Origin: Octopus vulgaris
Lineage: Eukaryota
Assembly: GCA_951406725.2 (NCBI GenBank)
Contig: OX597832.1
Coordinates: 21,948,001-22,012,000 of the forward strand
Direction: 5' to 3'
DNA: 64,000 nucleotides
Shown: positions 5,626-41,094 of the stretch, piece by piece
Layout of the letters: the number at the start of each line of letters is the position of its first letter
Position numbering within the stretch: position 1 is the first letter of the stretch
The notes under the pieces: model-generated
The model's input: only the letters and a program-made list of their open reading frames with translations
What the model was told of the DNA's origin: nothing
Databases searched by the model: none
Made by a program: the position numbers and the translations under genes

Positions 5626-5761
5626 ATATATATATATATATATCTTTATTTATTTTGTGTGTGTGTGTGTATGTATGGATATATATATATAAATATATAT
5701 GTATGTGTGTGTGTGTGCGTGTGTGTGTGTATGTATGTATATGCATATGTATATATATATA

Positions 5762-5796
<35 letters not shown>

Positions 5797-5968
5797 GTGT
5801 ATATATATATATGCATATATACATATATATATATATATATGCATATATATGTATATATATGTGCGTGTATGTATGTATATGTGTGTACATGTATACATAA
5901 TGTTTATATGTATATATATATATATATATATGTATATTTAATGTGCATATGTATATATATGTGTGTAT
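5626..5968. repeat. (TA)n/(TG)n microsatellite
   Basis: Seen directly. Confidence 0.95.
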
Positions 5969-5977
5969 AATGTTCTA

Positions 5978-6420
5978 CCTTTCACTTGTTTCAAGTCATT
6001 GGATTGTTGCCATGCTGGAGCAAGGCAATGAAGGGTTTTAAGGCAAACAAATTAACTCCAGGACTTAGGACTTTTTTAAGCCTGGTGCTTTTCTATCAGT
6101 TCTTTTGCTGAACTGCTAAGTTTGGGGGCGGGGACATAAACAAACTAACACTGGTTGTCAAGTGCTGGTGGTGGTGGACAAACACACCCACATGGATATA
6201 TATATATATATATATATATATGTATACACACATATCCAAGTATACACAGATAAATACACATACACACACAATGGGCTTCTGTCAGTTTCCATATCCTAAA
6301 TCCACTCAAGGTTTTGGTCAGCCAGAGGCTTAAGGAAACGCTTGCCCAAGATGCTGCACAGTAGGCATGAACCTGGAACCATGTGATTCAGAAGCAAACG
6401 TGTTACCACACAGCCATGCC
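5978..6420 (-). mobile_element. SINE family A, diverged full-length copy
   Basis: Reverse complement of the family-A head and tail, with the internal microsatellite. Confidence 0.75.
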
Positions 6421-6647
6421 CTCATGAATTTGCATGTTATCTGTAACATCATTCTAACATCCACTTTTCCATGCTGGCATGGGTCAGATGGAATTTCAGC
6501 AGATTTCCGACAGCTGGATCCTCTACTTGTCACCAACCCTCTCTTGCTTCCAAGCTAAGTAATATTTACCCAATGCCTAGACAGGTTTCCACAGAAGACT
6601 GGGAAGAACATTATCCTTTTAGCATCTAAATTGGTCATGATCTTTGA

Positions 6648-6825
6648 ACAGTGGGCCCCACGGAGGCAATGACAAGTGACCGAGACCTTTGGCGATATGC
6701 CATTTCTTGAGAAGAACCTTGAAGCCAAGTGAAATCATAGTCAAGGCCAATGTCGGTGTCACGTAACTGGCATCTATGCTGGTGGCACATAAAAAGCACC
6801 CTTCAAATGATGGGCCCTATGGAGT
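6648..6825 (+). mobile_element. RTE-LINE ORF end plus start of 3' UTR
   Basis: GAGGCAATGACAAGTGACCGAGACCTTTGGCGATATGCC translates EAMTSDRDLWRYA, followed by a GGTGGCACATAAAAAGCACC unit. Confidence 0.7.
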
Positions 6826-6844
6826 TTCCTATCATTAAGGCACA

Positions 6845-7404
6845 TTATTACCTCTGCCTTAGCGAAGACAGAGGTATTGTTTTCAGTTGTGTTTGTTTGT
6901 CTGTGGACAAGATATCTCAAGAACCACAGGATGGATTCGGATGAAACTTTCAGGGGTGTTTGGCCTTGTGACTGGCACTAACTGATTAGATTTTGGGATT
7001 GATCCAATACCGGACCAGGATTCTGGATTGTTTTTTCAGTTTTTTTACTTAATTTTTTAGAGTGGGCGGGTTCGTCGAAATGCGTAGCCATATTTTGTCT
7101 GCCGTTACGTTCTGAGTTCAAATTTCACCGAGGTCAACTTTACCTTTCATCCTTTCGGGATCGATTAAAATAAGTACCAGTTACACACTGGGGTTGATGT
7201 AATCGACTTAATCCGTTTGTCTGTCTTTGTTTGTCCCCTCTATGTTTAGCCTCTTGTGGGTAGTAAAGAAATATATTATTTTTGTTTGTGAGAGCAGTCA
7301 AGATTATTTCAGATATTCTCATTTTAAAAATCCTCTCCGGCTAATTGCTGAAAAGACATTGGTGTGGCCTTGGTGGAGGTTTGCACTCTCAGAGTGCTCT
7401 TGTT
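6845..7404 (+). mobile_element. Non-autonomous Helentron/Helitron-type element (HINE/DINE-1-like) with a family-B SINE fragment inserted at about 7076-7270
   Basis: 5' TTATTACCTCTGCC…CAGAGGTA hairpin, GTTT/GTCT tract, 3' sub-terminal inverse GGTGGAGGT, terminal hairpin GCACTCTCAGAGTGC, ends CTTGTT. Confidence 0.65.
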
Positions 7405-7809
7405 AATTATATAACCAAGCTAAAACGCATACATACACATGTCAATAAGGAATCACCTACAGAGTTGCTTGACCAGTTAGAAATAGCAACTAAATGTCCT
7501 ACATAAATGTCTGACATTGTCGTATCAATGAAAAGAAGAACACATTTGGAAATGCAGCCATAAATACATTATATCCCGATAAGGAAATAAAACAAGAAAT
7601 GAAAAAAAAACCTCCATAGCTATTGTTGTAAGCTTCTTTGAACATTCAAGCGATGGTAATTGATAATTCTGACTTTGTAATGCACCAGAGATCAAGCAAA
7701 AAAATATTTACTGGTGTCCTCTGTGTGGGAAGTTACACAAAACTAGGTTTTTAAAGCGACAGGTTTTGTCAACATTTACTGTCGTTTTCTATGCCGGCAT
7801 GGGTCAGAG

Positions 7810-8558
7810 CATTGGTTCTCAGCCACGGCCCATATAAGATTTTCGGGGATCCACACAACGAAATAGTACATTGGGGACCCCCAATAGCATTTTAAGGGCT
7901 CCTGAAAAAAATTTTGCTTTAGATATATGTATTCATAAGTATTACGAGAAACAGGTAGGTTTCTTCCTTTAACATTTTATCTAGTTTGACCCACACAAAT
8001 TGATGTGTGAAAAACAAAATAGAATTTTGAAAGAACATAGGCGTAGGAGTGGCTGTGTGATAAGTGGCTTGCTTACCAGCCACATGGTTCTGGGTTCAGT
8101 CCCACTGTGTGGCACCTTGGGCAAGTGTCTTCTACTATAGCCTCAGGCCGACCAAAGCCTTGTGAATGGATTTGGTAAACGAAAACTGAAAGAAGCATGT
8201 CGTATATATGTATATATATATGCATGTGTGTGTATATGTTTGTGTATCTGTGTTTGTCCTCCCAACATCACTTGACAACCGATGGTGGTGTGTTTATATC
8301 CCCATAACTTAGCGGTTCGGCAAAAGAGACTAATAGAATAAGTACTAGGCTTACAAAGAATAAGTCCTGGGGTCGATTTGCTCGACTAAAGGCGGTGCTC
8401 CAGCATGGCCACAGTCAAATGACTGAAACAAGTAAAAGAGTAAAAGAGAGAAGTTTCTATAAAACTAGTTTTTAAACATCGAATAGCTATAGAGGTCTAC
8501 CAGAATAAAATAGTAATCAAAGGGGGTCATGGGTAAAAAAGTGGTTGAGAACCCCCTG
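7810..8558. mobile_element. hAT (Charlie-like) MITE interrupted by SINE A
   Basis: Imperfect TIRs CATTGGTTCTCAGCC (7810) and GGTTGAGAACCCCCTG (8543-8558), similar to CAGTGGTTCTCAACC-type hAT ends. Confidence 0.65.
8038..8450 (+). mobile_element. SINE family A, full length (tRNA-like head, CORE-like segment, internal (TA)/(TG) microsatellite, (AGTAAAAG)n tail)
   Basis: TAGGCGTAGGAGTGGCTGTGTG (A box-like), GGTTCAGTCCC (B box-like), CCTTGGGCAAGTGTCTT, tail AAGTAAAAGAGTAAAAGAG. Confidence 0.9.
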
Positions 8559-8880
8559 GGTTTGATGACTTGACTGGAATTGCTAAGCTGGAAAGCTGCA
8601 CCAGGCTCCAGTCTGGTTTGGCTTGGTTGCTACGGCTGGATGCTCTTCCTAACGCCAACCACCACAAGGGTGTAGTAGGTGCTTTTTACATGTCACTGGC
8701 ATTGGCCATGATGATTTCACTTGGTCTGATGTGTCTTCTCAAGCACAGCAAATTGCCAAAGGTCTTGATCTTGTCATCACCTTCACGCCTCCATCAGGCT
8801 CGACATCTGAAGATCTTGCTTCGCCACTACATCCCATGTCTTTCTAGGTCTACCTCTTCCACAGGTTCCCTCCATAGTTA
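8559..8880 (-). pseudogene. RTE-clade LINE ORF C-terminus plus 3' UTR (continues at 7770-7809 beyond the hAT MITE)
   Basis: Minus-strand translation LTMEGTCGRGRPRKTWDVVAKQDLQM…DQDLWQFAVLEKT has the GRGRP..TW motif typical of RTE ORF ends and runs into the family-C UTR. Confidence 0.8.
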
Positions 8881-9004
8881 GCAAAGTGGCAACATATATA
8901 AGAAGAGAATTCTTTATTCACCAACCATATTTGTGTATGACAAAATTATGAAGAATACATTTGGAAAAGATGGTTAAAGCATTGGTGATCGAAGTGCCAA
9001 CACT

Positions 9005-9240
9005 TAAAGTGGTAGTGGCACCAATAATTGTCGGGGCCCTGGGAACAGTGAGTAAAAAGTCTTTGGAAGTACATGGAACAAATAGGGGCTGCAATAAGGG
9101 TGGAGTACTTGCAGTAAATAGCACTGCTTGGAATCACTCGAATATTCCGGAAGGTGCTCGAAAAACAAGAGGTGTTACCTTAGTTCACTGGTAGTGAACA
9201 GCTGACACCACGGTACATCTCCAGTGTTAGAAGCAAAGAA
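9005..9240 (+). pseudogene. R4/Dong-type (restriction-like endonuclease) non-LTR retrotransposon 3' fragment ending in (AAT)n
   Basis: KVVVAPIIVGALGTVSK / frameshift / SLWKYMEQIGAAIRVEYLQ*IALLGITRIFRKVLEK resembles the PIIVGALG…LQK.ALLGTARILRKVL C-terminus of RLE elements. An (AAT)n tract follows at 9241-9275. Confidence 0.75.
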
Positions 9241-10599
9241 AATAATAATAATAATAATAATAATATTAATAACAATGATTCTTTCTACCATAGGAACAAG
9301 GCCAGCAGTTTTAGGGGACCAGTTAAGTTGAATATCATCAACTCCAATATTTGATTGGTGCTTATTTTATTGACCCTGGAAGGGTGAAAGATGAAGTCAA
9401 CCTCAGCAGAATTTGAACTGAGAACGTAAAGGTAATAACAATAATGATGATGATGATGATGATTATGATGATTCTAGTATGTATTTCATGTAGGAGGAGA
9501 ATAAAAAAAAAAAAAATGAAACGAGAACACTTGAAGAATTCCATCATGTTCAGAAATGTGAAACTTGATAGTTCCAGCATCTGCAATGCATAACAGTGGT
9601 TCCTCCTACCTTGCGGAGAATCGGTTTCTGCTGATTAAATGGTAAAGTAGACAGATAAATTACAACACTTACAGAACAGTGAGATATTCAGCTGAGAAAT
9701 TTAGCTCCAAAAACTTCACCCTCCCCCCCACGACGACCACCACCGACAACCATGTGAGCCACTAAACGACAGTTGCTCGACTGTTTTTTGTCTTTGATAA
9801 AAATAGCATCCAAGTGCCCCTCAAGTCACACCCTTATCAGCTGGGGGTTCAACCTACTGTGTAGCACCCTGTACAAGTGTGTTCTACAATGCCTGTGGGA
9901 TGACTGAAGCCTTGTGGGTGAGTTTGGTAGACAGAAAACTGAAACTGAAAGAAGTCTGCCATATGTATGATTTTTCATTGAGTTTTATCTAAGTTTTTCA
10001 TAAGCGAACTTAGGTGTAGGAGTGGCTGTGTGGTAAGTAGCTTGCTTACCAACCACATGGTTCCGGGTTCAGACCCACTGCGTAGCACCTTGAGCAAGTA
10101 TCTTCTACTCGGGCCGACCAAAGCCTTGTGAGTGAACCCGGAACCATGTGGTAACAAAAAAAAAAAGAAAAAAAAGAAAAAACAGTTGCCCAAAGTTTCG
10201 CACAGTGGGGTTGAGCCCCAAACTACACGGGTCTGAAAGCAAACTTCTTAACCACACATCTAACAACATGCCTTTTCGAATGATACAACTTTCTAATATC
10301 CTATTGGTGTTTCTCTGATGACTAATCGACCAATCAGAGAAAAGAATGACTTTAAGGAAATATTTTCCAAACCGGCTGCATCTGACAATCCTATTAACAA
10401 CAAAGAAATCGGTCGCAGTGGAAGGACATTAAACAGTGGAATATTTCTTCAGATTGTGTAATCACAGACTGCTTATCTTGACCGTTTCCATACTTTAAAG
10501 AGAATATCGGATTATATGGCAACTAACTAGCTTATCGAATTACATCACAGATATATCTAAAAATAGATTTATTATGGTAATTTAGCAGACATATTCCTC

Positions 10600-11375
10600 A
10601 ATGTGTGCATATGTGTGTGTGTGTGTGTATGTGTTCATGTGTGAGTGTGTGTCCATGTGCATGTATATGCAGGTATGTGTGTGCATATGGGTATGTGTGA
10701 ATGTCTGTGTATGTGAGTGTGTGTGTTCATCTGCAATTGTGTGTTCCTGTGCGAGTGCGTGTGCATGTGTGTGAATGTTTCAGTACAAGTGTGTATGTGT
10801 GGGTGTGTGTATGTCACTGTTGTGTATGTGCAAGTGTGTGTGTGTGTAGGTATGTATGTGTGTATGGGTATGTGTGAGTGCGTGTGTGTATGTGTTCATG
10901 TGCGAGTGTGTGTCCATGTGCATGTGTATGAATGTGTCTGTACAAGTGTGAGTGTGTGTGTGCATGTGACTGTTGTGTATGTGCGAGTGTATGCAGGTAT
11001 GTGTGTGTGTGAGTGTGTGTATATGAGTGTATGTGTGTTCATGTGCATGTGTATGAATGTGTCTACAAGTGTGTGTGTGTGTATGTGCAAGTGTGTGCAG
11101 GTATGAATGTGCGTATGGGTATGTGTGAGTGTGTGTGCATGTGTGAGAGGGTGTATGTGTGTGCGTGCGTGCGAATGTACATGTGCATATGTGTGTCTGT
11201 GTGCATGTGTGTGTGCATGTGTGAGAGAGTTGCGTATGAGCAAGTGTGTGCATGTGAGTGTGTGAATGTGTGAGTGCATGCATGAGTGTGCATACATGTG
11301 TATGTGTGTGAACATGTACATGTGAGTGTGTCTGTGTGTGTGAGTGTGTGCACACGTACATGTGGGCGTGTGTAG
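10600..11375. repeat. Degenerate (TG)n microsatellite
   Basis: Seen directly. Confidence 0.95.
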
Positions 11376-11687
11376 GTTAATGGAATGGCAGAACTGAATG
11401 ATAAATGCCTAACAGTATTCAGTTAAGCCCATTCCGCTCAGCGTTTCAATTGCACTGTCCGTCCTTCAAGGGTCATTTTGGCCATCATCATTACCACCAT
11501 CATTTTAATGTCCGCTTTCCCATCCTTTGCATGGGTGAGATGGAATTTACAGTGGCAAATTTCCTACAATTGGATACCCTTCCTGTCGCTAATTGTCACC
11601 TGTTGACGCTAATTGATGGTGATGATGATGATTACTCAATCAAATGTAATTCTTATTTACGCTCATTGTTTCTAATTATTCATGTAC

Positions 11688-11848
11688 TAGGCGCAGGAGT
11701 GGCTGTGTGGTAAGTAGCTTGCTTACCAACCACATGGTTCCAGGTTCAGTCCCACTGCGTGGCACCTTGGGCAAATGTCTTCTACTATAGCCTCAGGCCG
11801 CCCAAAGCCTTGTGAGTGGATTTGGTAGACAGAAACTGAAAGAAGCCC

Positions 11849-11933
<85 letters not shown>

Positions 11934-12190
11934 TATATATATACATATATATATATGTGTGTGTGTGTGTGTGCGTGTATGTTTGTGTTTGTCCCCCTAG
12001 CATTGCTTGACAACCGATGCTGGTGTGTTTATGTTCCCGTCACTTAGCGGTTCGGCAAAAGAGACCGATAGAATAAGTACTGGGCTTACAAAGAATAAGT
12101 CCCGGGGTCGAGTTGCTCGATTAAAGGCGGTGCTCCAGCATGGCTGCAGTCAAATGACTGAAACAAGTAAAAGAGTAAAAGAGTAAAGAG
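11688..12190 (+). mobile_element. SINE family A, full length, with an expanded internal (TA)n
   Basis: Near-identical to the copies at 14625, 27219 and 47331. Confidence 0.92.
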
Positions 12191-12582
12191 TATTTGATAG
12201 CTTCAAGACTTCAACACCATCATCAGCATCATTTGACATCTGCTTACTATGCTGGCATGTGTTAGATGGCTAGACAGGAACTGGTGAGCAGCACCAGGCT
12301 CTTCCATCTGTTTTGGCTTGGGTTCAACAGCTGAAAGCCTTTCCTAATGCCAACCACTCTAAGAGTGAACTGTGTGCCTTTTACAGGTCACTGACACAGG
12401 GGTGATTGTTTATTTTTAGAGCGGCAGTGTAAGGTAAGTGTGAGAAGCCAGATCTAGCCAGACTGAATATAAAACAGTTAAGAATTCTTGGGCTTAACAG
12501 GGCTGACCTAAATACTGAGGGGTTAAATATGACTTTCTTCAATAAATTTGGTTTCACCTGGGTTGCAATTTAAAGTGTCGAA

Positions 12583-13078
12583 GTATGCTGTGCGTGAGAA
12601 GACCTGGCAGGGCAAGTGAGACCATAACCCATGGCCTCAGTCCACTTATGCATACCTTTCCTTCTTGGGACACAAAACTCTACTTGTGAAGACCTGTTGA
12701 GGCAAGTGAAAATCAAAATCAAAATCAAAATCGATCAACATCAATGGAAATTGTAGCTGTGATACCAGTGCCGGTGGCACGTAAGACAACCATCCGAACG
12801 TGGCTGTTGCCAGCGCCGCCCCGACTGGCTTCTGTGCCGGTGGCACGTAAAAAGCACCATCCGATCGTGGCCATTGCCAGCCTCGCCTGGCACCTGTGCC
12901 GGTGGCACGTAAAAAGCACCCACTACACTCATGGAGTGGTTGGTGTTAGGAAGGGCATCCAGCTGTAGAAACATTGCCAGATCTGACTGGGCCTGGTGCA
13001 GCCTTCTGGCTTCCCAGACCCCAGTTGCACCGTCCAACCCATGCCAGCATGGAAAGCGGACGCTAAACGATGATGATG
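12583..13078 (+). mobile_element. RTE-LINE 3' end (family C) with three tandem hairpin units and a (GAT)n tail
   Basis: TATGCTGTGC.TGAGAAGACC ORF end, three copies of GTGCCGGTGGCACGTAA, then GGAAGGGCATCCAGCTG and GATGATGAT. Confidence 0.85.
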
Positions 13079-13094
13079 AAGTGTATACGAATAA

Positions 13095-13305
13095 TCCTTT
13101 CTACTATAAGCACAAGGGCTGAAATTTTGGAGGAGCAGGGGATAAGTCGATTACATCGACCCTGGTATATAACTGGTACTTAGTTTATCGACCCCGAAAG
13201 CATGAAAGGCAAAAGTCGACCTCGGCGGAATTTGAACTCAGCATGTAGCAACAGGTGAAATACCGCTACGCCGATCATGCTAACCACTCTGACAGCTCGT
13301 TACCT
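13095..13305 (-). mobile_element. SINE family B (variant tail)
   Basis: ATCGACCCCGAAAG.ATGAAAGGCAAAAGTCGACCTCGGCGGAATTTGAACTCAG. Confidence 0.8.
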
Positions 13306-13710
13306 TTGTGTAACTGAATAATTCCATGCATATTCCTTTGCAAGCAATAAAACCTATACAGCAGCTGCAATGAGCTGGAAACCTGTATGCACACGCATGC
13401 GTGTATGCATGTATACGCATATGTGTGTGTGCGTGTTTATACCTTTATCCCAGTTCAGCCTAATTGGTTTGGACTTTATGGCTAAGCATTACTCCAAGAT
13501 ATCAAATATTTAAATTGATTTGCCGAGATAACAATTAATCGCTCAATATCTTTAATGTTTATTTTTCCCTAGCCTCTCCTCCTCATTATTTCGTAACTTC
13601 ACGATCATTATAGTCTTTTATGATCGTTTAAATTTAAAAAAACACAAAAAAAAGCTATTTTCATTAAACACTAAGGTAATTGGCCAAATTACTTAAAAGC
13701 TGGCCCAAGT

Positions 13711-13767
<57 letters not shown>

Positions 13768-13834
13768 TCTTAACTGTTTCCTTACCATATTCCTGTTGAC
13801 ACATGCTGTCCTTATTTAAATTAGTTTTGGCAGT

Positions 13835-14494
13835 AATGACATGTTAAAAAGCACCATCTGGCGTTAGGAAGGGCATCCAGCTGTAGAAACACTGCCAGAT
13901 CAGACTGGGCCTGGTGCAGCCTTCTGGCTTCCCAGACCCCAGTTGAACCGTCCAACCCATGCCAGCATGGAAAGTGGACGTTAAACGATGATGATGATGA
14001 TGAATGTGGCCGATGCCAGTGCCCCCTGACTGGCTTCCGTGCCGGTGGGACATAAAAAGCACTATCTAAATGTAATTGATGCCAGGGCTGCCTGACTGGC
14101 TCCCCGTGCTGGTGGCACGTAAAAAGCACCCACTACACTCTTGGAGTGGTTGGTGTTAGGAAGGGCTGCCAGAGCAGCCAACTGGCTTCTATGCCAGTGG
14201 CACATAAAAGGGCACCATTCGAGCGTGATCGTTACCAACATCACCTTACTGGCACCTGTGCTGGTGACATGTATAAAAAGATTTGAGCGAGGTCGTTGCC
14301 AGAACCACTTGACTGGCCCCCGTGCCGGTGGCACGTAAAAAGCACCCATTACACTCTTGGAGTGGTTGGCGTTAGGAAGGGCATCCAGCTGTAGAAACTC
14401 TGCCAGATCAAGATTGGAGCCTGGTGCAGCCATCTGTTTCGCCAGCCCTCAATCAAATCGTCCAACCCATGCTAGCATGGAAAGCGGACGTTAA

Positions 14495-14525
<31 letters not shown>
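13835..14525 (+). mobile_element. Two tandem RTE 3' UTR pieces (13835-14002 and 14003-14525), the second with about 5 hairpin units
   Basis: Two (GAT)n tails and repeated GTGCCGGTGGCAC-TAAAAAGCAC units. Confidence 0.85.
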
Positions 14526-14527
<2 letters not shown>

Positions 14528-14624
14528 AGAAGAATGATGCTGGAGGAACAGAGTTTGAAAAACATGGCATAAGTCCTTCATCAGATAAAAAGGAAGAGAA
14601 AGAGAAGGACAAGAAATATATAGA

Positions 14625-15036
14625 TAGGCGCAGGAGTGGCTGTGTGGTAAGTAGCTTGCTAACCAACCACATGGTTCCGGGTTCATTCCCATTGCGTGGC
14701 ATCTTGGGCAAGTGTCTTCTGCTATAGCCCCGGGCCGACCAATGTTTGTGAGTGGATTTGGTAGACGGAAACTGAAAGAAGCCCGTCGTATATATGTATA
14801 TATATATATATGTGTGTGTGTGTGTATGTGTTTGTCCCCCTAGCATTGCTTGACAACCAATGCTGGTGTGTTTACGTCCCCGTCACTTAGCGGTTCGGCA
14901 AAAGAGACCAATAGAATAAGTACTGGGCTTACAAAGAATAAGTCCCGGGGTCGATTTGCCCGACTAAAAGGCGGTGCTCCAGCATGGCCGCAGTCAAATG
15001 ACTGAAACAAGTAAAAGAGTAAAAGAGAGTAAAGAG
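14625..15036 (+). mobile_element. SINE family A, full length
   Basis: Intact head and tail. Confidence 0.92.
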
Positions 15037-15316
15037 TATATATTAATACGGTTGATAGATATTAACAAAAAACAAAAAAAACAGAATGGCTAGAAGATAT
15101 ACAGATATACAGATAAAGGGAAAAAGAGACAGATTAAAATAAACGGATACGGACAGACAGACAGATATCTGGAGAAGAAGACACACATGCAAATGGTGCA
15201 AATGGATATATTGAAAGTTGTCTGATTCACAGGAAGTAGTCTGCATTTTGGTTAACCAAAACCAAAAGAATAAACATCAATGTCTATTTGTCTGTGAGAA
15301 AAAATATACAAATGAA

Positions 15317-15319
<3 letters not shown>

Positions 15320-15360
<41 letters not shown>

Positions 15361-15889
15361 TACATATAGCTGCTCAGTACCTCTCCGAAAGAGAGAGAGA
15401 GGGGGATATACATAGACATATATATACATATATATATATATACACATATATATATATACATACACATATATATATATATATATGTACACATATATATATA
15501 CATACACATATATATACATACGCATATATATACATACACATATATATATATACACATATATACACATATATATACATACATATATATATATATATATATA
15601 CATACACATATATATATATATATACATACACATATACATAAATACACATACATATACATACATACATATACATACATACATATACATACATACATATATA
15701 TATATACACACATACATACATACATACATATACATACATATATATATATATACACATACACATATATATATACATACATATATATATACATATACATACA
15801 CACACACACACATATATATATATATACACATACATATATATATATATACACATATATATATATACATACACATATATATATACATACAG

Positions 15890-15922
<33 letters not shown>

Positions 15923-15940
15923 CACACACATCCATACACA
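15320..15940. repeat. (TA)n/(CATA)n microsatellite
   Basis: Seen directly. Confidence 0.95.
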
Positions 15941-16463
15941 CATTATTTCCTATTTTTTTATTTTATTTTTAGACTCTTCTCCATATACCTTCTAACCAAT
16001 CGCCACCCACTCATCTTCTTTTGTTATGAATTCCATGAATTAGACACACTTTTCACTCTAAACTTTATGCGTATATATATCAGCGAACGAGTGAGTGAGT
16101 GAATGAGTGTGTATGTGAGAATGTGCACACAGATTCTGCATCCAGTGCACAAAGCAAATTAATATGCACACAAAAGAAATTAGTTGCCGAAAATAATGCA
16201 ACGATTGATAATTACACTTACTGCAAACTCTATCTCTTAGCCGTTTCGATTAACGAGTTAGACGGTTTTTTTTTTCTTTCCCCCACCACTATCACCATTA
16301 GCACGTTGCAAAATATCAGCCAGCGAACCCTTCCCTTGTTCAATCTGTGTGCAATATTAGCGTTGTGGTAGCTATGGTTTGGTGGACGACAGTATTCACA
16401 TTGCAACATAAGCAAAAGAACTGCAAGTCTGTTTGAAGCAAAGTCACCATCATCATCATCATC

Positions 16464-16698
16464 ACCTATTTCTTTACTGCCCACAAGGGGCTAAACACAG
16501 AGAGGACAAACAAGGACAGACAAATGGATTAAGTCGATTAGATCGAAGCCAGTGTGTAACTGGTACTTAATTTATCGACTCCCAGAAGGATGAAAGGCAA
16601 AGTCGACCTCGGCGGAATTTGAACTCAGAACGTAGCAACAGGTGAAATACCGCTAAACATTTCGCCCAGCGTGCTAATGATTCTGCCAGCTCACCGCC
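16464..16698 (-). mobile_element. SINE family B, full length
   Basis: Same sequence as 368-602; CATCATCATCACC occurs on both flanks. Confidence 0.88.
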
Positions 16699-35330: not shown

Positions 35331-36751
35331 AACTCTTATCTTTTATGTTTTGCTTGTTTCTGTTACCTGACTGCGGCCATGCTGGGGCACTGCCTTGAAG
35401 GGCTTTAGTCGAACAAATCAACTTCCAGTAGATATGCCTTTTCCAAAATTCTGGTACTGATTCTATTGGTCTCATTTGCACTGGAATGCTACATTACAAG
35501 GATGTAAACAAACCAACACCGATTATCAAGCAAAACAGAAATTTGGAACAGATACTGATACTACAAGGCCACACTGCTCTGGATTGGTACCTTTGGAGTT
35601 TTTTATTACTGACCACAGCAGGGTTATTCATTTTTGCCAGCTCAGTGGACTGGAGCAATGTGGAATGAAATGCCTTGCTCAAGAACACAACGCGTCGCCC
35701 GGTCCAGGAACTGAAACCACAATCTCACAGTCATGAGTCCAACACCTTAACCATTAAGCCACGCACCTCCACACACACACACACACATGGTGATGTGAAT
35801 ATATATCAACAGCACAAATCAAAAAGAAATCATTAAAAAAAACTATAAAACATTCTATTCTATCAAGAAAAAAACAGATACCAAACATGGAAGAAAACCA
35901 TTCAGTTATAATGAATACAATGGCCACCACTTGACAAGAAATCATCAATAACTGATCTATGGCTTTGCCATTGTAATGGCATTTTTAAAATCATCATCAT
36001 CATCATCGTCATTATTATTATTATTATTATCATTATTGTTATTATTATTATTGTTATTACATGTGTAGCAGCGTCACCGGAAGAAGCATGATTAACCAGT
36101 TTTCGTCTGTGCAAAGAGCTTTATGGAATAAGTTGCTATGGATTTCCTGAGATTGAAACAGTGAGTTATGTAAAAGGAATAGAAAAGAAAAGAAAAGAAA
36201 AGAAAGGAAAGAAAATAAATAAATAAAAATGTAAAAAATCAGGAGATCACAGGACCCGGAGGCAAGACACTTTGTAGTATGTAATGATTCTTGGCATACA
36301 AATGTTTGGTAGAGAAGCATGCCATATATCATTGTGTCCTTCCCATTTCTCTCTCTCTCTCTCTCTCTCTGTATGTGTGTATGTGTGTGTGATTGTATGT
36401 ATATGTGTGTGTATGTATGTGTGTGTGTTTATGTATGTATGTGTGTGTATGTATGTATGTGTGTGTATGTATGTATTTGTGTTTATGTATGTATGTATGT
36501 ATTTGTGTGTATGTATGTACATATGTATTTGTGTGTATGTATGTACATATGTATTTGTGTGTATGTATGTACATATGTATTTGTGTGTATGTATGTATGT
36601 ATGTGTGTGTGTATGTATGTATGTGTATTTATGTATGTATGAATGTGTGTGTATGTATGTACGTATGTATTTATATACGTATCTATGTATTTATGTGTGT
36701 ATGTACGTGTGTGTGTGTGTGTATGTATGTTTGTATGTATTTATGTGTGTA

Positions 36752-37090
36752 CATCATCATCATCATCATTTAACGTCTGTTATTCATGCTGGCATGGGTT
36801 GGATGGTTTGACTAGGCTGGCACGCTGGAAAGCTACACCTAACTCCAGTCTGATTTGGCATGGTTTTCTATGGCTGGATGCCCTTCCTAACACCAACCAC
36901 TGCGAGCGTGTAATGGGTGCTTTATGTGCCACCAGTACAGGTGCCATTTTTGTGATACCAGTATCTGCCACAACTGCGATTTTGCTCAGCTTGATGCCAA
37001 AGGTCTTGGTGATTGCTTCCGTGAGGCCCAACACTCAAAAGGAACTCAGCCACTTTGCCTTCATGTGGCCCAACACTCCAAAGGAACTCA
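36752..37090 (-). mobile_element. RTE-LINE 3' end (family C)
   Basis: Same subfamily as 17056-17390. Confidence 0.8.
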
Positions 37091-37131
37091 GTCACCGACA
37101 CACACACACAACACTCACATTCCTACATACC

Positions 37132-37445
37132 CTCAGTGGTTAGAGCATTGGGCTCACAGTCATGAACTCAATTCTTGGACTGGGCTTTGCGTTGTGTTCT
37201 TGAGCAAGACACTTTATTTCACATTTGCTTCAGTTCACTCAGCTGTAGAAATGTGATGTGACATCACTGGTGCCAAGCTGTATCAGCCTTTCCCTTTTCC
37301 TTGCTCAACATCAGTGGTATGGAGAAGGGAGGCTGGTATGCATGGGCGACTGCTGGTCTTTCCATAAACAAGCTTGCCCGCAGGGGAACTTTCTAGGTGC
37401 AATCCCATGGTCATTCATGACCGAAGGGGGAGGGGGTTCTTTACT
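37132..37445 (+). mobile_element. SINE head E (CORE-like) plus tail Z
   Basis: GTTGTGTTCTTGAGCAAGACACTTTA…CTCAGCTGTAGAAATG…CTTTCTAGGTGCAATCCCATGGTCATTCATGACCGAAG. Confidence 0.8.
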
Positions 37446-37842
37446 CTTTACCTTTTATAGGCATCATAGTCATCATCATCAGCACCATCATTTAACAGCT
37501 ACTGTCCATGCTGTCATGGATTGGATGGTTTGACAGGTTATCCAGTGAGCCAACAAAGCTGTACTGGGCCTCAACATCAACTTTGGTATGGTTTCTCAGG
37601 CCAGATGCCCTTCCTAATACCAGCCACTTCTTGGAGTGCACTGGTTGCTCTTTCTCTTATGCCACCGGCACTGGTGGGTTGGCCAAGTAACTTGCAAGGC
37701 AGAAGAACAGGGAGAGGAAAAAAGAACAAGATCCTACAACTAAATGGGGAGGTGGCTATATAGTGATTGTCGAAAGGTTTCACTGAACTGTGGCCATGCT
37801 GGTGCACCACCTTGAAGGGTTTAGTCAAACAAATTGACTCCA

Positions 37843-38221
37843 TAGTAAAGATTGTTCGCCAACATAACATGGCAGTCCTGGTTTAGGACAAAGGTTGCTG
37901 TAATTTAGCCCCAGGAGAATCGTCTCCAGCTGGCTATACGACATGATCTGTGTCCTTATATTTTCAAACAAGGGGATCTAGCACCCCCACTCAGCTCAAA
38001 AGAATATCTGTGTATTGCGATTTCAGGGTTATTTCCCTTCATCAGCACAGAATAACCGTTCGGTTAGAGGTGGCGCTACTAAATTCCCATTCGAAATATA
38101 TAGTTTTCAAAGCGACAACTAGTCACTGATCTATAAATTAGAAAATTACTTTTTGTAAATCTCATAACGAGAGATATTCAGCAACAGTTCTTTGGGAATG
38201 AAGGTTATTTGCCAACATAAC
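37843..38221 (-). mobile_element. Retrozyme-like / Penelope-type non-autonomous insertion (379 bp, 353-bp unit plus 26-nt terminal redundancy) inside a diverged SINE A
   Basis: TSD ATTGACTCCA at 37833-37842 and 38222-38231. Direct repeat AGTAAAGATTGTTCGCCAACATAACA (37844) and AATGAAGGTTATTTGCCAACATAACA (38197). Internal HHR. Confidence 0.8.
38007..38051 (-). ncRNA. Minimal type-I hammerhead ribozyme
   Basis: Minus strand: TCTGTG-CTGATGA-AGGG-AAATAA-CCCT-GAAA-T-CGCA-ATA-CACAGA. Perfect 6-bp stem I, 4-bp stem II, intact core, AUA triplet, minimal stem III. Confidence 0.88.
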
Positions 38222-39099
38222 ATTGACTCCAGTATGTTTTTTTGTATTGTTAAGCTTGGTATTTATTCTATCAGTCTATCGGGGACATAAACAAACAAAC
38301 ACTGGTTGTCACAAACACAGACACACAGACATATATATGATGGACGTCTTTCAGCTTCCTTCTATTTATTCTTTCTCTTAAGCCTGGTACACATACACGC
38401 ACAAATATTCTACTTTTCATTAATGCATGCTGCACACATACATATGCACACAAAGATGCATCACTGCATGCTAATTCAGACAAGTCATGGTTCACAAAAT
38501 GCATCTAAAACTGCACACCAAGCAAGCATATTTGCATAATAAAAAGAACATCTTCACACATTTCATACAATGATGCATGTTGCATGTCAGTGCACACTGC
38601 TGCTTAAATAATGCACACTGCACAATTGAGACTCCCCCGCTGCATGTTAAGCCAACTAGATGTAGAGTTATAGTAGACAATGCGTAATGCATGTATGTTG
38701 CACATCAAATGTGCAGTGCTTGCTGCACCACCGCAAATGCACATGGATGCCGTGTAGACACGAGTGCATCTAGTGTATGCACCACCAGAGCATTCTGGGA
38801 TGCACAACGATGCAACTGACGCGCACAAACGCACAGACATATGCAAATGTCGGAGCAGACAGAGAGAGAACAAAAAGAGAATAAATAGAGCAAATGTATG
38901 GAAATAAAGGATTTACCATTCTGCGGGGGTGGGCACGTGGGGGTGGGAGTGGGTGGCAGGTGGGGGAGGAGGGCTTGTATAAATATTCATAGAAAGGAGA
39001 TTGAGGAATATAAACACCATTGCCACCACCACCACCACCACTAGTGCAGTAGCAGCTAAAAAAAAAATTCTGCACAACAGTAAGAGATACATGCAGGCA

Positions 39100-39530
39100 T
39101 ATACAGACATGCACACACATATATATACACACACATGCATATCTGTGTGTGTATATATATATATATACACACACACATACATAGATTCTTAAACATATCT
39201 AATCACACACACACATAAATATACGCATATATATACACATATATTTATATACATATATATATACATACATATATTTATATACATATATATATACATACAT
39301 ATATATATACACATATATATACATACATATATATATACACATATATATGCACATATATATATACATGTATATACACACACATATATATATATATACATAC
39401 ATATATATATATATATACATACATATATATATGTATATATACACACACACACATATATATATATACATGTACATATTCTATACACACACACACACACACA
39501 CAGACACACACACACACACACACACAGAGG
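39100..39530. repeat. (TA)n/(CA)n microsatellite
   Basis: Seen directly. Confidence 0.95.
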
Positions 39531-40019
39531 AAGAACAAGAAGGAGAAAGACAGTGTGGAAAAAAGAGAGAGTGTGTGTGTGTGTAGGTGTATATGTAAAT
39601 GTGTGAATGTGTGTGTGAAAGAGAGAGAGTATGAAAGAAGAAAAGGATTAAGCTTTCTGAGCAGCAAATCTTGTTTAAATGAATGATTGAGATTATTGAT
39701 TATGGCAAAAACTAAATCATTTTATTTGTCCTGCTGTTAGCAGCAGCAGCAGCCGGCGCCAGTGCTGGGGTTGTTTCTCACAGGCTCTTAGCTGACTTGC
39801 CTCATCTACTTTCACTTTTGACTTCCACCATCATCACCATAATTATTATTATTGGTGTTGTTCTTGTTTTAAAGGAAATAAAGGAAGTGTAAATTCCGAG
39901 TAGAAATCCTTGTTGTCAGCAGCATCAGTGGGGGTGGCAGTGGTGGTAGTACCTTGGGTAGGAGTCTATTACAACCCCAGGCTGCCCAAAGCCTCGTCAA
40001 TGGATTTATGAAATAAATC

Positions 40020-40140: not shown

Positions 40141-40369
40141 ATATATATATCATCATCATCATTTAACGTCTGTTTTCCATGCTAGCATGGGTCGGACAGT
40201 CCGACCGGGGTCTGGTAAGCCATGGAGGCTGCACCAGGCTCTAGTCTGATTTTACTATATATATTGGTAAAAACGGTAAGATAACAAAAGAAAGAAAGAG
40301 ACCTCAATATTATGTAAATAGAGGAAATTTATCTGTAAATGTAATATGTGACAATTATTCGGTAGCCAT

Positions 40370-40430
40370 GATAAAACTCCGAGTTTCTGATGCCGAGGTG
40401 GAAATCCACACCACCATCTCTTCAGTTATC
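40370..40430 (-). ncRNA. Hammerhead motif, left arm of an inverted repeat
   Basis: Minus strand: GATAA-CTGAAGA-GATG-(22 nt)-CATC-A-GAAAC-TCGGA-GTT-TTATC. Stem I is GATAA/TTATC; there is one extra nt before GAAAC. Confidence 0.7.
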
Positions 40431-40449
40431 CGGCCATGTCAGTTTTTCC

Positions 40450-40510
40450 GATGACTGAAGAAATGGTGGCGTGAATTTCCACCTCTGCATCTGAAACTCA
40501 GAGTTTTATC
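40450..40510 (+). ncRNA. Hammerhead motif, right arm of an inverted repeat
   Basis: GATGA-CTGAAGA-AATG…CATC-T-GAAAC-TCAGA-GTT-TTATC. Confidence 0.65.
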
Positions 40511-41094
40511 TTGGCTACCGATAATTGTCACATATTACATTTACAGATATATATATATATGTATGTGTGTGTGTGTCAAGTGCATCCAGCAGTATAAACA
40601 AGGGCAAAACAACAAACAATTTGAGCCTGGTGTAGCTCTCCAGCCTTGCCAGCTCCTGTCAAATTGTCCAACACATGCCAGCATGGAAAACGGATGTTAA
40701 ATGATGATAGGAGATAATGGGATGTTCACTTCTTAACCATAAGCCATGTCTCTTTTACTATAACCCTGCATTTGCCAAAGCCTTTTGAGGAAATTTGGTC
40801 AATGGAAACTCAAAGAATCCTATCGTCTCACTTTTTTTGTCTGTGTGTATACTTCAATCTAGCAGATCTGATTTCATTTTGGAAGCGATATCCAGTAAGA
40901 GACTCTGAGGAACTGTAACAACAGCAAAATACATATCTGTGGCTCTCAGTCACTTCTGGGGTGATCTTTCTTTGCTTAGCTCTTAAAGTATATTGTTTTT
41001 TCTTAACACAATACATCTTTAAGTCCATTTAAAGTTCCCTTACACAAAGAACATTCACCTGTGAAACAAACAACTGAAATATGTATGTATGTAT

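What the first reader, a model, noticed from the sequence alone, without database searches (positions are those of the whole stretch)
37833..38231. Retrozyme-like insertion: intact minimal hammerhead inside a TSD-flanked, terminally redundant 353-nt unit
Seen: a 379-bp non-coding block splits an old SINE A. It is bounded by an exact 10-bp TSD (ATTGACTCCA). It begins and ends with the same 26 nt (5 transition differences), spaced 353 bp apart. On the minus strand it carries TCTGTG-CUGAUGA-AGGG(AAATAA)CCCT-GAAA-U(CGCA)AUA-CACAGA, a full hammerhead core with perfect stems I and II. Established: metazoan non-LTR retrozymes and Penelope-like pseudo-LTRs are short units with one minimal type-I HHR, and retrozymes produce circular RNAs. 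Inference: a slightly-more-than-unit-length copy with the ribozyme in the middle is what reverse transcription around a 353-nt circle (or along a tandem multimer) would leave. This suggests a cephalopod circRNA/retrozyme family mobilised in trans by target-primed reverse transcription.
Basis: partly seen in the sequence, partly recalled or inferred. Interest (0 to 1): 0.85.

Follow-up and report, generated by a model that had tools for sequence, protein, structure and literature searches.

The report
Penelope-mobilised hammerhead retrozyme family
This is one decayed copy of a non-coding 353-base repeat family that carries a hammerhead-ribozyme motif and whose insertions end at two fixed points and are often head-to-head inverted, as in Penelope-like jumping genes, so it is likely a known kind of parasitic RNA element (a retrozyme) copied by Penelope enzymes, with self-cleavage and a circular RNA form still untested.

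Summary
There is an exact 10-bp TSD, a 379-bp insert in an older repeat, a 353-nt period and a type I hammerhead motif on the minus strand. Corrections: the termini differ at 6 of 26 sites, and the 'perfect stem II' comes from a private substitution. The family has an A·G mismatch there and a stem III palindrome, decayed in this copy. Copies are not circularly permuted. In 72 genomic loci, 99 of 121 outer 3' ends fall at two sites about 57 nt apart, 5' ends scatter, and 49 are head-to-head inversions: 32 pair one short with one long end, none short-short or long-long. This matches the Penelope-like (PLE) 'tail' signature. No copy is joined to an RT/GIY-YIG ORF, and no sampled PLE has this pLTR, so it is most likely a non-autonomous non-LTR retrozyme moved in trans by PLE enzymes. 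Two related families share the anatomy. Rfam does not score the motif, RNA-seq shows no ends at the cleavage site, and circles are unproven. It is a known kind, and the scan noted a similar case in a ray genome. The end-pairing evidence was not found in print. Interest 0.42.

The parts
37843..38221 (-). The insertion: 1.07 units of a 353-nt non-coding repeat, 5'-truncated, not inverted. It runs from unit position c145 through the cut site to c170 (c1 = first base after the predicted cut, 38012).
37833..37842 (+). Target-site duplication, copy at the element's 3' end
38222..38231 (+). Target-site duplication, copy at the element's 5' end; its first 2 nt also match the unit (microhomology)
38007..38051 (-). 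Type I hammerhead motif: stem I 6 bp, core 38045-38039, stem II 38038-38025, GAAA, 2-bp stem III, triplet AUA, predicted cut 38013/38012. Private base at 38025 closes stem II; CpG decay at 38016 weakens the dimer palindrome.
37843..37868 (-). 3' terminal 26 nt ending at the family's fixed 'short' 3' end (c169-171), inferred RT start site 1
38196..38221 (-). 5' redundant 26 nt, the point where this copy is truncated; 6 differences from the 3' copy
38139..38195 (-). 'Tail' segment c171-c227, internal in this copy. In other copies it forms the ~57-nt extension ending at the fixed 'long' 3' end, inferred RT start site 2.
37777..37842 (+). Left half of the older, abundant host repeat split by the insertion
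38232..38311 (+). Right half of the older host repeat

Best explanation
The insert is one decayed copy of a dispersed, ORF-less 353-nt hammerhead-motif repeat family that was likely a non-LTR retrozyme copied in trans by the reverse transcriptase and GIY-YIG endonuclease of a Penelope-like element. Shown: unit, TSDs, two fixed 3' ends, scattered 5' ends, read-through into the next unit, and head-to-head inversions with one short and one long end. Inferred mechanism: a more-than-unit RNA (tandem transcript or circle; about even odds) is bound by PLE protein; the endonuclease makes staggered nicks 9-15 bp apart; one target 3'-OH primes inside the RNA at about c170 and the other at about c227; the two truncated cDNAs join head to head, or only one is kept, as here. 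The hammerhead would most likely act as a dimer through the stem III palindrome, cutting multimers to monomers that could be ligated into circles (untested). The family looks extinct (median 3.9% non-CpG divergence), and this copy's palindrome has decayed.
For: Ends: 74 of 87 outer 3' ends in 53 distinct loci fall in c158-175 or c220-237, about 10% of the unit (windows chosen after seeing the data). The same windows hold 25 of 34 ends in 19 new loci. 5' ends scatter. Inversions: 34 of 53 and 15 of 19 loci are head-to-head; 23+9 pair short with long, 0 short-short, 0 long-long, and 11+6 have one end elsewhere. This matches the PLE anatomy in PMC8557442 (Fig. 2 legend) and the two internal RT start sites that define the tail in PMC11167929. 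TSD of 9 nt or more in 14 of 53 loci against 1 of 150 mismatched-flank controls. No ORF: longest ATG frame 28 codons. No flank shared at a junction among 19 outer 5' and 87 outer 3' flanks. No PLE RT/EN match in the 60 unit loci or the 19 new ones. A 362-nt sister family (225 of 374 aligned columns identical) has 42 of 44 3' ends at the homologous sites. Stems I and III covary across three families. The majority unit folds at z -6.9 as a circle, and 73 of 91 alignable pairs still pair in the sister, 12 through two-sided changes, against 30-38 for slid controls. The genome holds intact 781-aa RT+GIY-YIG ORFs and further GIY-YIG families with their own hammerhead motifs.
Against: The autonomous partner was not found. 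None of the sampled GIY-YIG loci has a terminal repeat homologous to the unit, so PLE involvement rests on anatomy. Only 40 of 1456-2970 candidates were scored per search. Rfam does not score the motif. The family's A·G at 10.1·11.1 would be rejected by the criteria of PMC3088659. In three RNA-seq runs of one study, possibly another species, no molecule starts or ends piled up at the cut site, both orientations were read, and 68-75% of laid reads ran on into unlike sequence. That fits read-through of genomic copies rather than an abundant circle. The two termini of this copy differ at 6 of 26 sites, more than a single circular template plus decay would suggest (not tested). The tail (~57 nt) is longer than the 30-40 bp reported for PLEs. 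One of 15 sister inversions is long-long.
Confidence: 0.8

Rival explanations
1. The unit is the (tandem) pLTR of an autonomous PLE that I did not sample, and the copies are its 5'-truncated insertions, so this is an ordinary solo pLTR.
For: Fixed ends, tail and inversions are all pLTR features. One PLE family here has two tandem 3' units after its ORF (L111). bioRxiv 10.64898/2026.07.22.740005 found 24 of 57 Xenopus retrozyme families homologous to Repbase elements, nearly all PLE termini. GIY-YIG searches scored only 150 of 5688-16572 candidates each.
Against: 35 of 53 main arms exceed one unit and continue into another unit, up to 1085 nt. No shared upstream flank was found. Unit-like pieces near PLE ORFs are separate insertions in varied positions and orientations. 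The sampled PLEs have unrelated pLTR hammerheads.
Confidence: 0.13
2. Same PLE-driven mechanism, but the template was a linear tandem transcript; the hammerhead is slow or dispensable and no circle is involved. This competes only with the circle step of the best explanation.
For: For the Anolis PLE, hammerhead mutants insert normally and no RNA-seq reads end at the cut site (PMC11167929). There is no end pile-up here either. Only 1 of 9 Xenopus dimers cleaved in vitro. The family has a mismatch next to the core.
Against: Core, stem I and palindrome are conserved or covary across three families about 60% identical. Tandem passes within one insertion share rare variants (20 of 190) ten times more often than different insertions (573 of 54838), as repeated passes round one molecule would give; homogenised arrays or later conversion would do the same. 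No long source array was seen (longest 3.07 units).
Confidence: 0.45
3. One reading: reverse transcription from arbitrary points round a circle by generic LINE-type TPRT, with twin priming explaining the inversions.
For: TSDs of 9-15 bp and 5' inversions also occur with L1 (recalled). The insert is slightly more than unit length.
Against: 3' ends are bimodal and fixed and conserved in a sister family. Both arms of an inversion end at a 3' start site and overlap in sequence, unlike L1 twin priming (recalled). No poly(A) tail follows the ends in the junction list.
Confidence: 0.04

Closest known systems
Metazoan non-LTR retrozymes (Cervera & de la Peña 2020, PMC7229834), especially the ~350-390-bp Mytilus repeats
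   Same: Short non-coding unit with one type I hammerhead motif, tandem copies, GC 41%, TSD longer than 4 bp, strongly self-paired predicted circle, coexisting PLEs.
   Different: Mostly dispersed truncated monomers and inversions, longest 3.07 units. Looks extinct. Mismatch at 10.1·11.1. Circular RNA and cleavage are not shown here. The parts of that paper I read do not describe fixed ends, tails or inversions (supplement unreadable).
Retrozymes as non-autonomous PLE derivatives (Li, Clavereau, Pollet 2026, bioRxiv 10.64898/2026.07.22.740005)
   Same: Same conclusion: mobilised by PLE machinery.
   Different: Their evidence is co-occurrence and pLTR homology, mainly in vertebrates. Here the evidence is insertion anatomy, and no homologous pLTR was found.
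pLTR and tail of EN+ Penelope-like elements (Craig et al. 2021, PMC8557442; Anolis Poseidon, Frangieh et al. 2024, PMC11167929)
   Same: 5' truncation, partial tandems, head-to-head inverted arm, tail on one end only, two internal start sites downstream of a hammerhead.
   Different: No RT/EN ORF. The tail is ~57 nt rather than 30-40. In Anolis the start sites lie within the ORF and showed no strand difference in vitro, whereas here the two ends of an inversion use different sites in 32 of 32 scorable cases.
Minimal PLE hammerheads (Cervera & de la Peña 2014, PMC4209133)
   Same: Palindromic stem/loop III predicted to work as a dimer; extra nucleotide after A9.
   Different: 6-bp stem I and a short 3-bp G-C stem II with a further variable nucleotide before G12 (A·G, A-U and C·A in three families), instead of a long helix II closed directly by G10.1-C11.1.

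Membership tests
non-LTR retrozyme | type I hammerhead motif in each unit | tested here: met
   Core, stem I and triplet present and 94-100% conserved per position in 67-73 passes; 1 of 5000 shuffles. Motif only, not activity.
non-LTR retrozyme | 150-450-bp monomer found in tandem | tested here: met
   353-nt period; arms up to 1085 nt. Most copies hold a single motif per arm.
non-LTR retrozyme | no protein coding, GC below 50% | tested here: met
   Longest ATG frame 28 codons; GC 0.41.
non-LTR retrozyme | TSD longer than 4 bp when present | tested here: met
   10 bp here; 9 nt or more in 14 of 53 loci against 1 of 150 controls.
non-LTR retrozyme | highly self-paired predicted circle | tested here: met
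   z -6.9 against 60 shuffles; this copy z -3.6 on the motif strand and -2.2 on the other; covariation with the sister family (two sequences only).
non-LTR retrozyme | expressed as unit-length linear and circular RNA | tested here: inconclusive
   Reads exist but show no ends at the cut site, uneven depth and run-on into flanks; library selection and species match unknown.
non-LTR retrozyme | self-cleavage in vitro | not testable with these tools
   Predicted dimer helix -12.1 kcal/mol for the majority palindrome, -2.3 for this copy.
non-LTR retrozyme | no LTR, PBS or PPT | not tested
   No PBS/PPT search was run; variable 5' ends argue against LTRs.
autonomous EN+ Penelope-like element | RT + GIY-YIG ORF | tested here: not met
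   None within about 1.5 kb of 60 + 19 unit loci, tested with proteins of the PLE families sampled.
PLE-mobilised element (insertion signature) | fixed 3' ends with an optional tail on one end; 5' truncation; head-to-head inverted arm | tested here: met
   99 of 121 ends at two sites; 49 of 72 loci inverted; 32 short+long, 0 like-with-like.
solo pLTR of an autonomous PLE | homology to the terminal repeat of an ORF-bearing PLE | tested here: inconclusive
   Not found in the GIY-YIG loci sampled (63 loci, of which 6 came from an Rfam search; 60), a small share of thousands of candidates.
Rfam Hammerhead_1 (RF00163) | covariance-model score | tested here: not met
   No hit at E<=10 on 37950-38110 or E<=5 on 36000-40000. 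The model does hit 6 other places in the genome.
canonical hammerhead core | Watson-Crick 10.1-11.1 pair, usually G-C, next to the core | tested here: not met
   Family majority A·G; A-U only in this copy; sister mostly A-U; third family mostly C·A.

The most novel reading that the evidence does not exclude
An orphan retrozyme superfamily (at least three families, each with roughly thousands of pieces) that shares no pLTR with any autonomous PLE, propagated through a circular RNA cut by an active hammerhead variant with a free 1x1 position between core and stem II. Its insertions record an obligatory asymmetric two-primer PLE reaction in which the two nicked target strands always start at different sites on the RNA. 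That would give a minimal RNA substrate for the unsolved second-strand and inversion step of Penelope transposition.
Probability: 0.3. Interest if true: 0.62.

Novelty: new member of a known kind. Interest (0 to 1): 0.42.

Why it matters
How animal retrozymes move has been proposed from co-occurrence and pLTR homology. Here the insertions themselves carry the PLE signature, and the strict short-plus-long pairing of inverted arms is a testable constraint on how PLEs make tails and inversions. The families are abundant, and because of the mismatch next to the core they would be missed by Rfam and by strict hammerhead descriptors. As a class the element is known, and this copy is a fossil.

Tried and rejected
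Random circular permutation: rejected. Partner search: the 781-aa RT+GIY-YIG family and the other GIY-YIG families sampled have their own, unrelated terminal hammerhead motifs or none detected. L109, L170, L241, L257 and L266 looked like links but are separate insertions (the last three judged only from position and orientation). The tblastn hits come from spurious frames of common repeats (L109-823, L107+2516, L112+6856) and were set aside in later calls. A-to-I footprint in genomic copies: not supported, A>G 128 against T>C 110, p 0.27. 'Inverted arms come from different RNA molecules': 4 of 310 shared rare variants in this family, but 6 of 79 against 0.5% background in the sister, so left open. 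The 10.1/11.1 tally was mis-registered by its pattern and is not used; one search is. No RNA holder was listed among indexed runs, which is no evidence either way. Seven duplicate loci were dropped from the first 60 and 11 from the 30 before counting. PF26215 is not in the library. Lünse 2017 and Arkhipova 2017 were not held, so whether this core variant was already described there is open.

Full report
Observation. The insert occupies 37843-38221 between two exact copies of ATTGACTCCA. Removing it restores one copy of an abundant older repeat: 11 of 11 loci align at 71-81%, and 10 of them extend on both sides of the junction. The termini repeat at a period of 353 and differ at 6 of 26 sites. 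The minus strand carries a type I hammerhead motif at 38051-38007 with the predicted cut at 38013/38012; 1 of 5000 shuffles meets a looser descriptor. Rfam does not score it. I number the unit from the cut (c1 = 38012); this copy runs c145 to c353, then c1 to c170.

Family. The 2.8-Gb genome gave 2970 first-look candidates for the unit (40 scored, 116 matches), and 1456 and 1772 for ribozyme-centred queries. These are not copy numbers but suggest the order of thousands. Copies are dispersed on many contigs. Divergence from the majority sequence at non-CpG sites is 2.2-7.8%, median 3.9%, and 5.1% for this copy, with heavy CpG decay. No near-identical pair turned up, so the family looks extinct. 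The unit has no ORF.

Ribozyme motif. Core and stem I positions are 94-100% conserved. Stem/loop III is a perfect 8-nt palindrome in the majority and has decayed here (predicted dimer helix -12.1 against -2.3 kcal/mol). Such palindromes are the mark of hammerheads proposed to act as dimers (PMC4209133, parts 1-2 of 4 read). Two related families confirm the fold by covariation. A younger 362-nt sister (2861 candidates) has a U3-A8 core and A-U at 10.1-11.1. A third family (2591 candidates) has mostly C·A there. Each has its own stem I and its own palindrome. PMC3088659 (passages) reports a natural U·U mismatch at this position but rejected such hits as a rule, so activity is open.

Insertion anatomy, the decisive result. 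In 53 distinct loci (60 fetched, 7 duplicates dropped), 74 of 87 outer 3' ends lie in c158-175 or c220-237, about 10% of the unit, while 5' ends scatter. The windows were drawn after seeing these data. In 19 new loci (30 fetched, 11 duplicates dropped) they hold 25 of 34 ends. Of 72 loci, 49 are head-to-head inversions: 32 have one short and one long end, 17 have one end elsewhere, and none is short-short or long-long. Among loci from ribozyme-centred queries alone the count is 20 of 20. TSDs of 9-15 nt occur in 14 of 53 loci against 1 of 150 controls, often with a few bases of microhomology (read from the list). In the sister, 42 of 44 3' ends fall at s177-178 or s232-238, which align to c169-170 and c226-231; 12 of 15 inversions are short+long, 1 is long-long and 2 are other. 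It inserts in (TA)n (that query included the microsatellite edge and favours long ends). PMC8557442 (passages and section 11) describes 5' truncation, an adjacent inverted copy and a 30-40-bp tail often on one end only as PLE hallmarks. PMC11167929 (parts 1-2 of 4) shows that an Anolis PLE protein nicks and extends both target strands and starts at two internal RNA sites that delimit the tail. I infer the same chemistry here. The terminal redundancy of this copy is a truncation after 1.07 units, not a permutation.

Is it a solo pLTR? 35 of 53 main arms exceed one unit and continue into another unit, up to 1085 nt; 8 of 26 do so among ribozyme-query loci. No outer flank is shared at a junction, and no PLE RT/EN match lies in these loci. 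The genome has several GIY-YIG lineages, including many intact 781-aa RT+GIY-YIG ORFs whose linker motif I read as Neptune-type (label from PMC8557442). Three of them carry hammerhead-like motifs downstream of the ORF, none homologous to the unit. Sampling was 150 scored of 5688-16572 candidates per search, so an unsampled partner remains possible (0.13).

Circle or linear multimer? The majority unit folds far better than shuffles (z -6.9; sister -5.8), and 73 of 91 alignable pairs hold in the sister against 30-38 in slid controls. The fold is about as stable in linear permutations, so it does not prove a circle. Tandem passes within an insertion share rare variants at 20 of 190 against 1% between insertions, which fits a circle, a homogenised array or later conversion. 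Three raw RNA-seq runs (one study, about 6% of each read, organism label C, not known to be the window's species) gave 2015, 1681 and 1552 reads. They come in both orientations, 68-75% run on into unlike sequence, depth is highest upstream of the short end, and there is no start or end pile at the cut site. This looks like host read-through, but a poly(A) library would lose circles, so it is weak evidence.

Known work. Non-LTR retrozymes are described in PMC7229834 (passages, parts 2 and 4 of 6, section 14; supplement unreadable), including 350-390-bp mussel repeats, with PLEs proposed as mobilisers. PMC7761336 (passages) says the repeats show no motif revealing the partner. The 2026 preprint (parts 1-3 of 5; supplements closed) argues PLE origin from co-occurrence and pLTR homology. 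Searches for a cephalopod case and for non-autonomous PLE anatomy listed no paper describing this family or the end pairing. The library lacks most subscription papers and Repbase, and two relevant papers were not held, so absence from print is not established.

Verdict. A real feature and a new member of a known kind: non-LTR retrozyme by most testable features, PLE-mobilised by anatomy (0.8). Self-cleavage, circles and the partner are unproven. Interest 0.42.

Noticed in passing
L091:28-293, L115-L144 (e.g. tandem in L118:506-1449): Younger 362-nt sister family (copies 93-99% to one reference copy), U3-A8 hammerhead core, same two 3' ends, targets (TA)n. A better candidate for cleavage and circle tests than the family in the finding.
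   Followed up: yes
L109:5620-5835, L172-L191; further diverged pieces in L241, L257, L266: Third related family with mostly C·A at 10.1·11.1 and its own stem I and palindrome; more relatives probably exist.
   Followed up: partly
window 40326-40551: Head-to-head inverted pair (85% identical arms) with a hammerhead motif on each arm (40425 minus, 40455 plus). The left arm appears to run on about 70 nt further, and both ends meet TA runs. Probably another PLE-type insertion of an unrelated family.
   Followed up: partly
window 10309-10365, plus strand: Another hammerhead-like motif from the descriptor scan; may be chance.
   Followed up: no
L103-L106: Young PLE family with intact 781-aa RT+GIY-YIG ORF, an upstream second ORF, 299-504-nt direct terminal repeats 99-100% identical, and a U3-A8 hammerhead motif with the same 6-nt palindrome and (TA)n context as the sister family: a candidate mobiliser for that family, without sequence homology.
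   Followed up: partly
L222-L251 and L252-L281: Two further abundant GIY-YIG lineages (open frames up to about 1090 aa in the first), each with a conserved hammerhead-like motif downstream of the endonuclease. The first may be Hydra-like; this was judged by eye from the protein and not tested.
   Followed up: partly
RNA-seq laid on L002:1790-2290: A>G differences at 30-33 places against T>C at 17-18, and a loose-end read cluster differing from the reference mostly by A>G: possible A-to-I editing of the inverted-repeat RNA. Needs matched DNA; genomic copies show no such bias.
   Followed up: partly
L039 junctions: Another copy appears inserted at nearly the same position of the same older host repeat as the window copy.
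   Followed up: no
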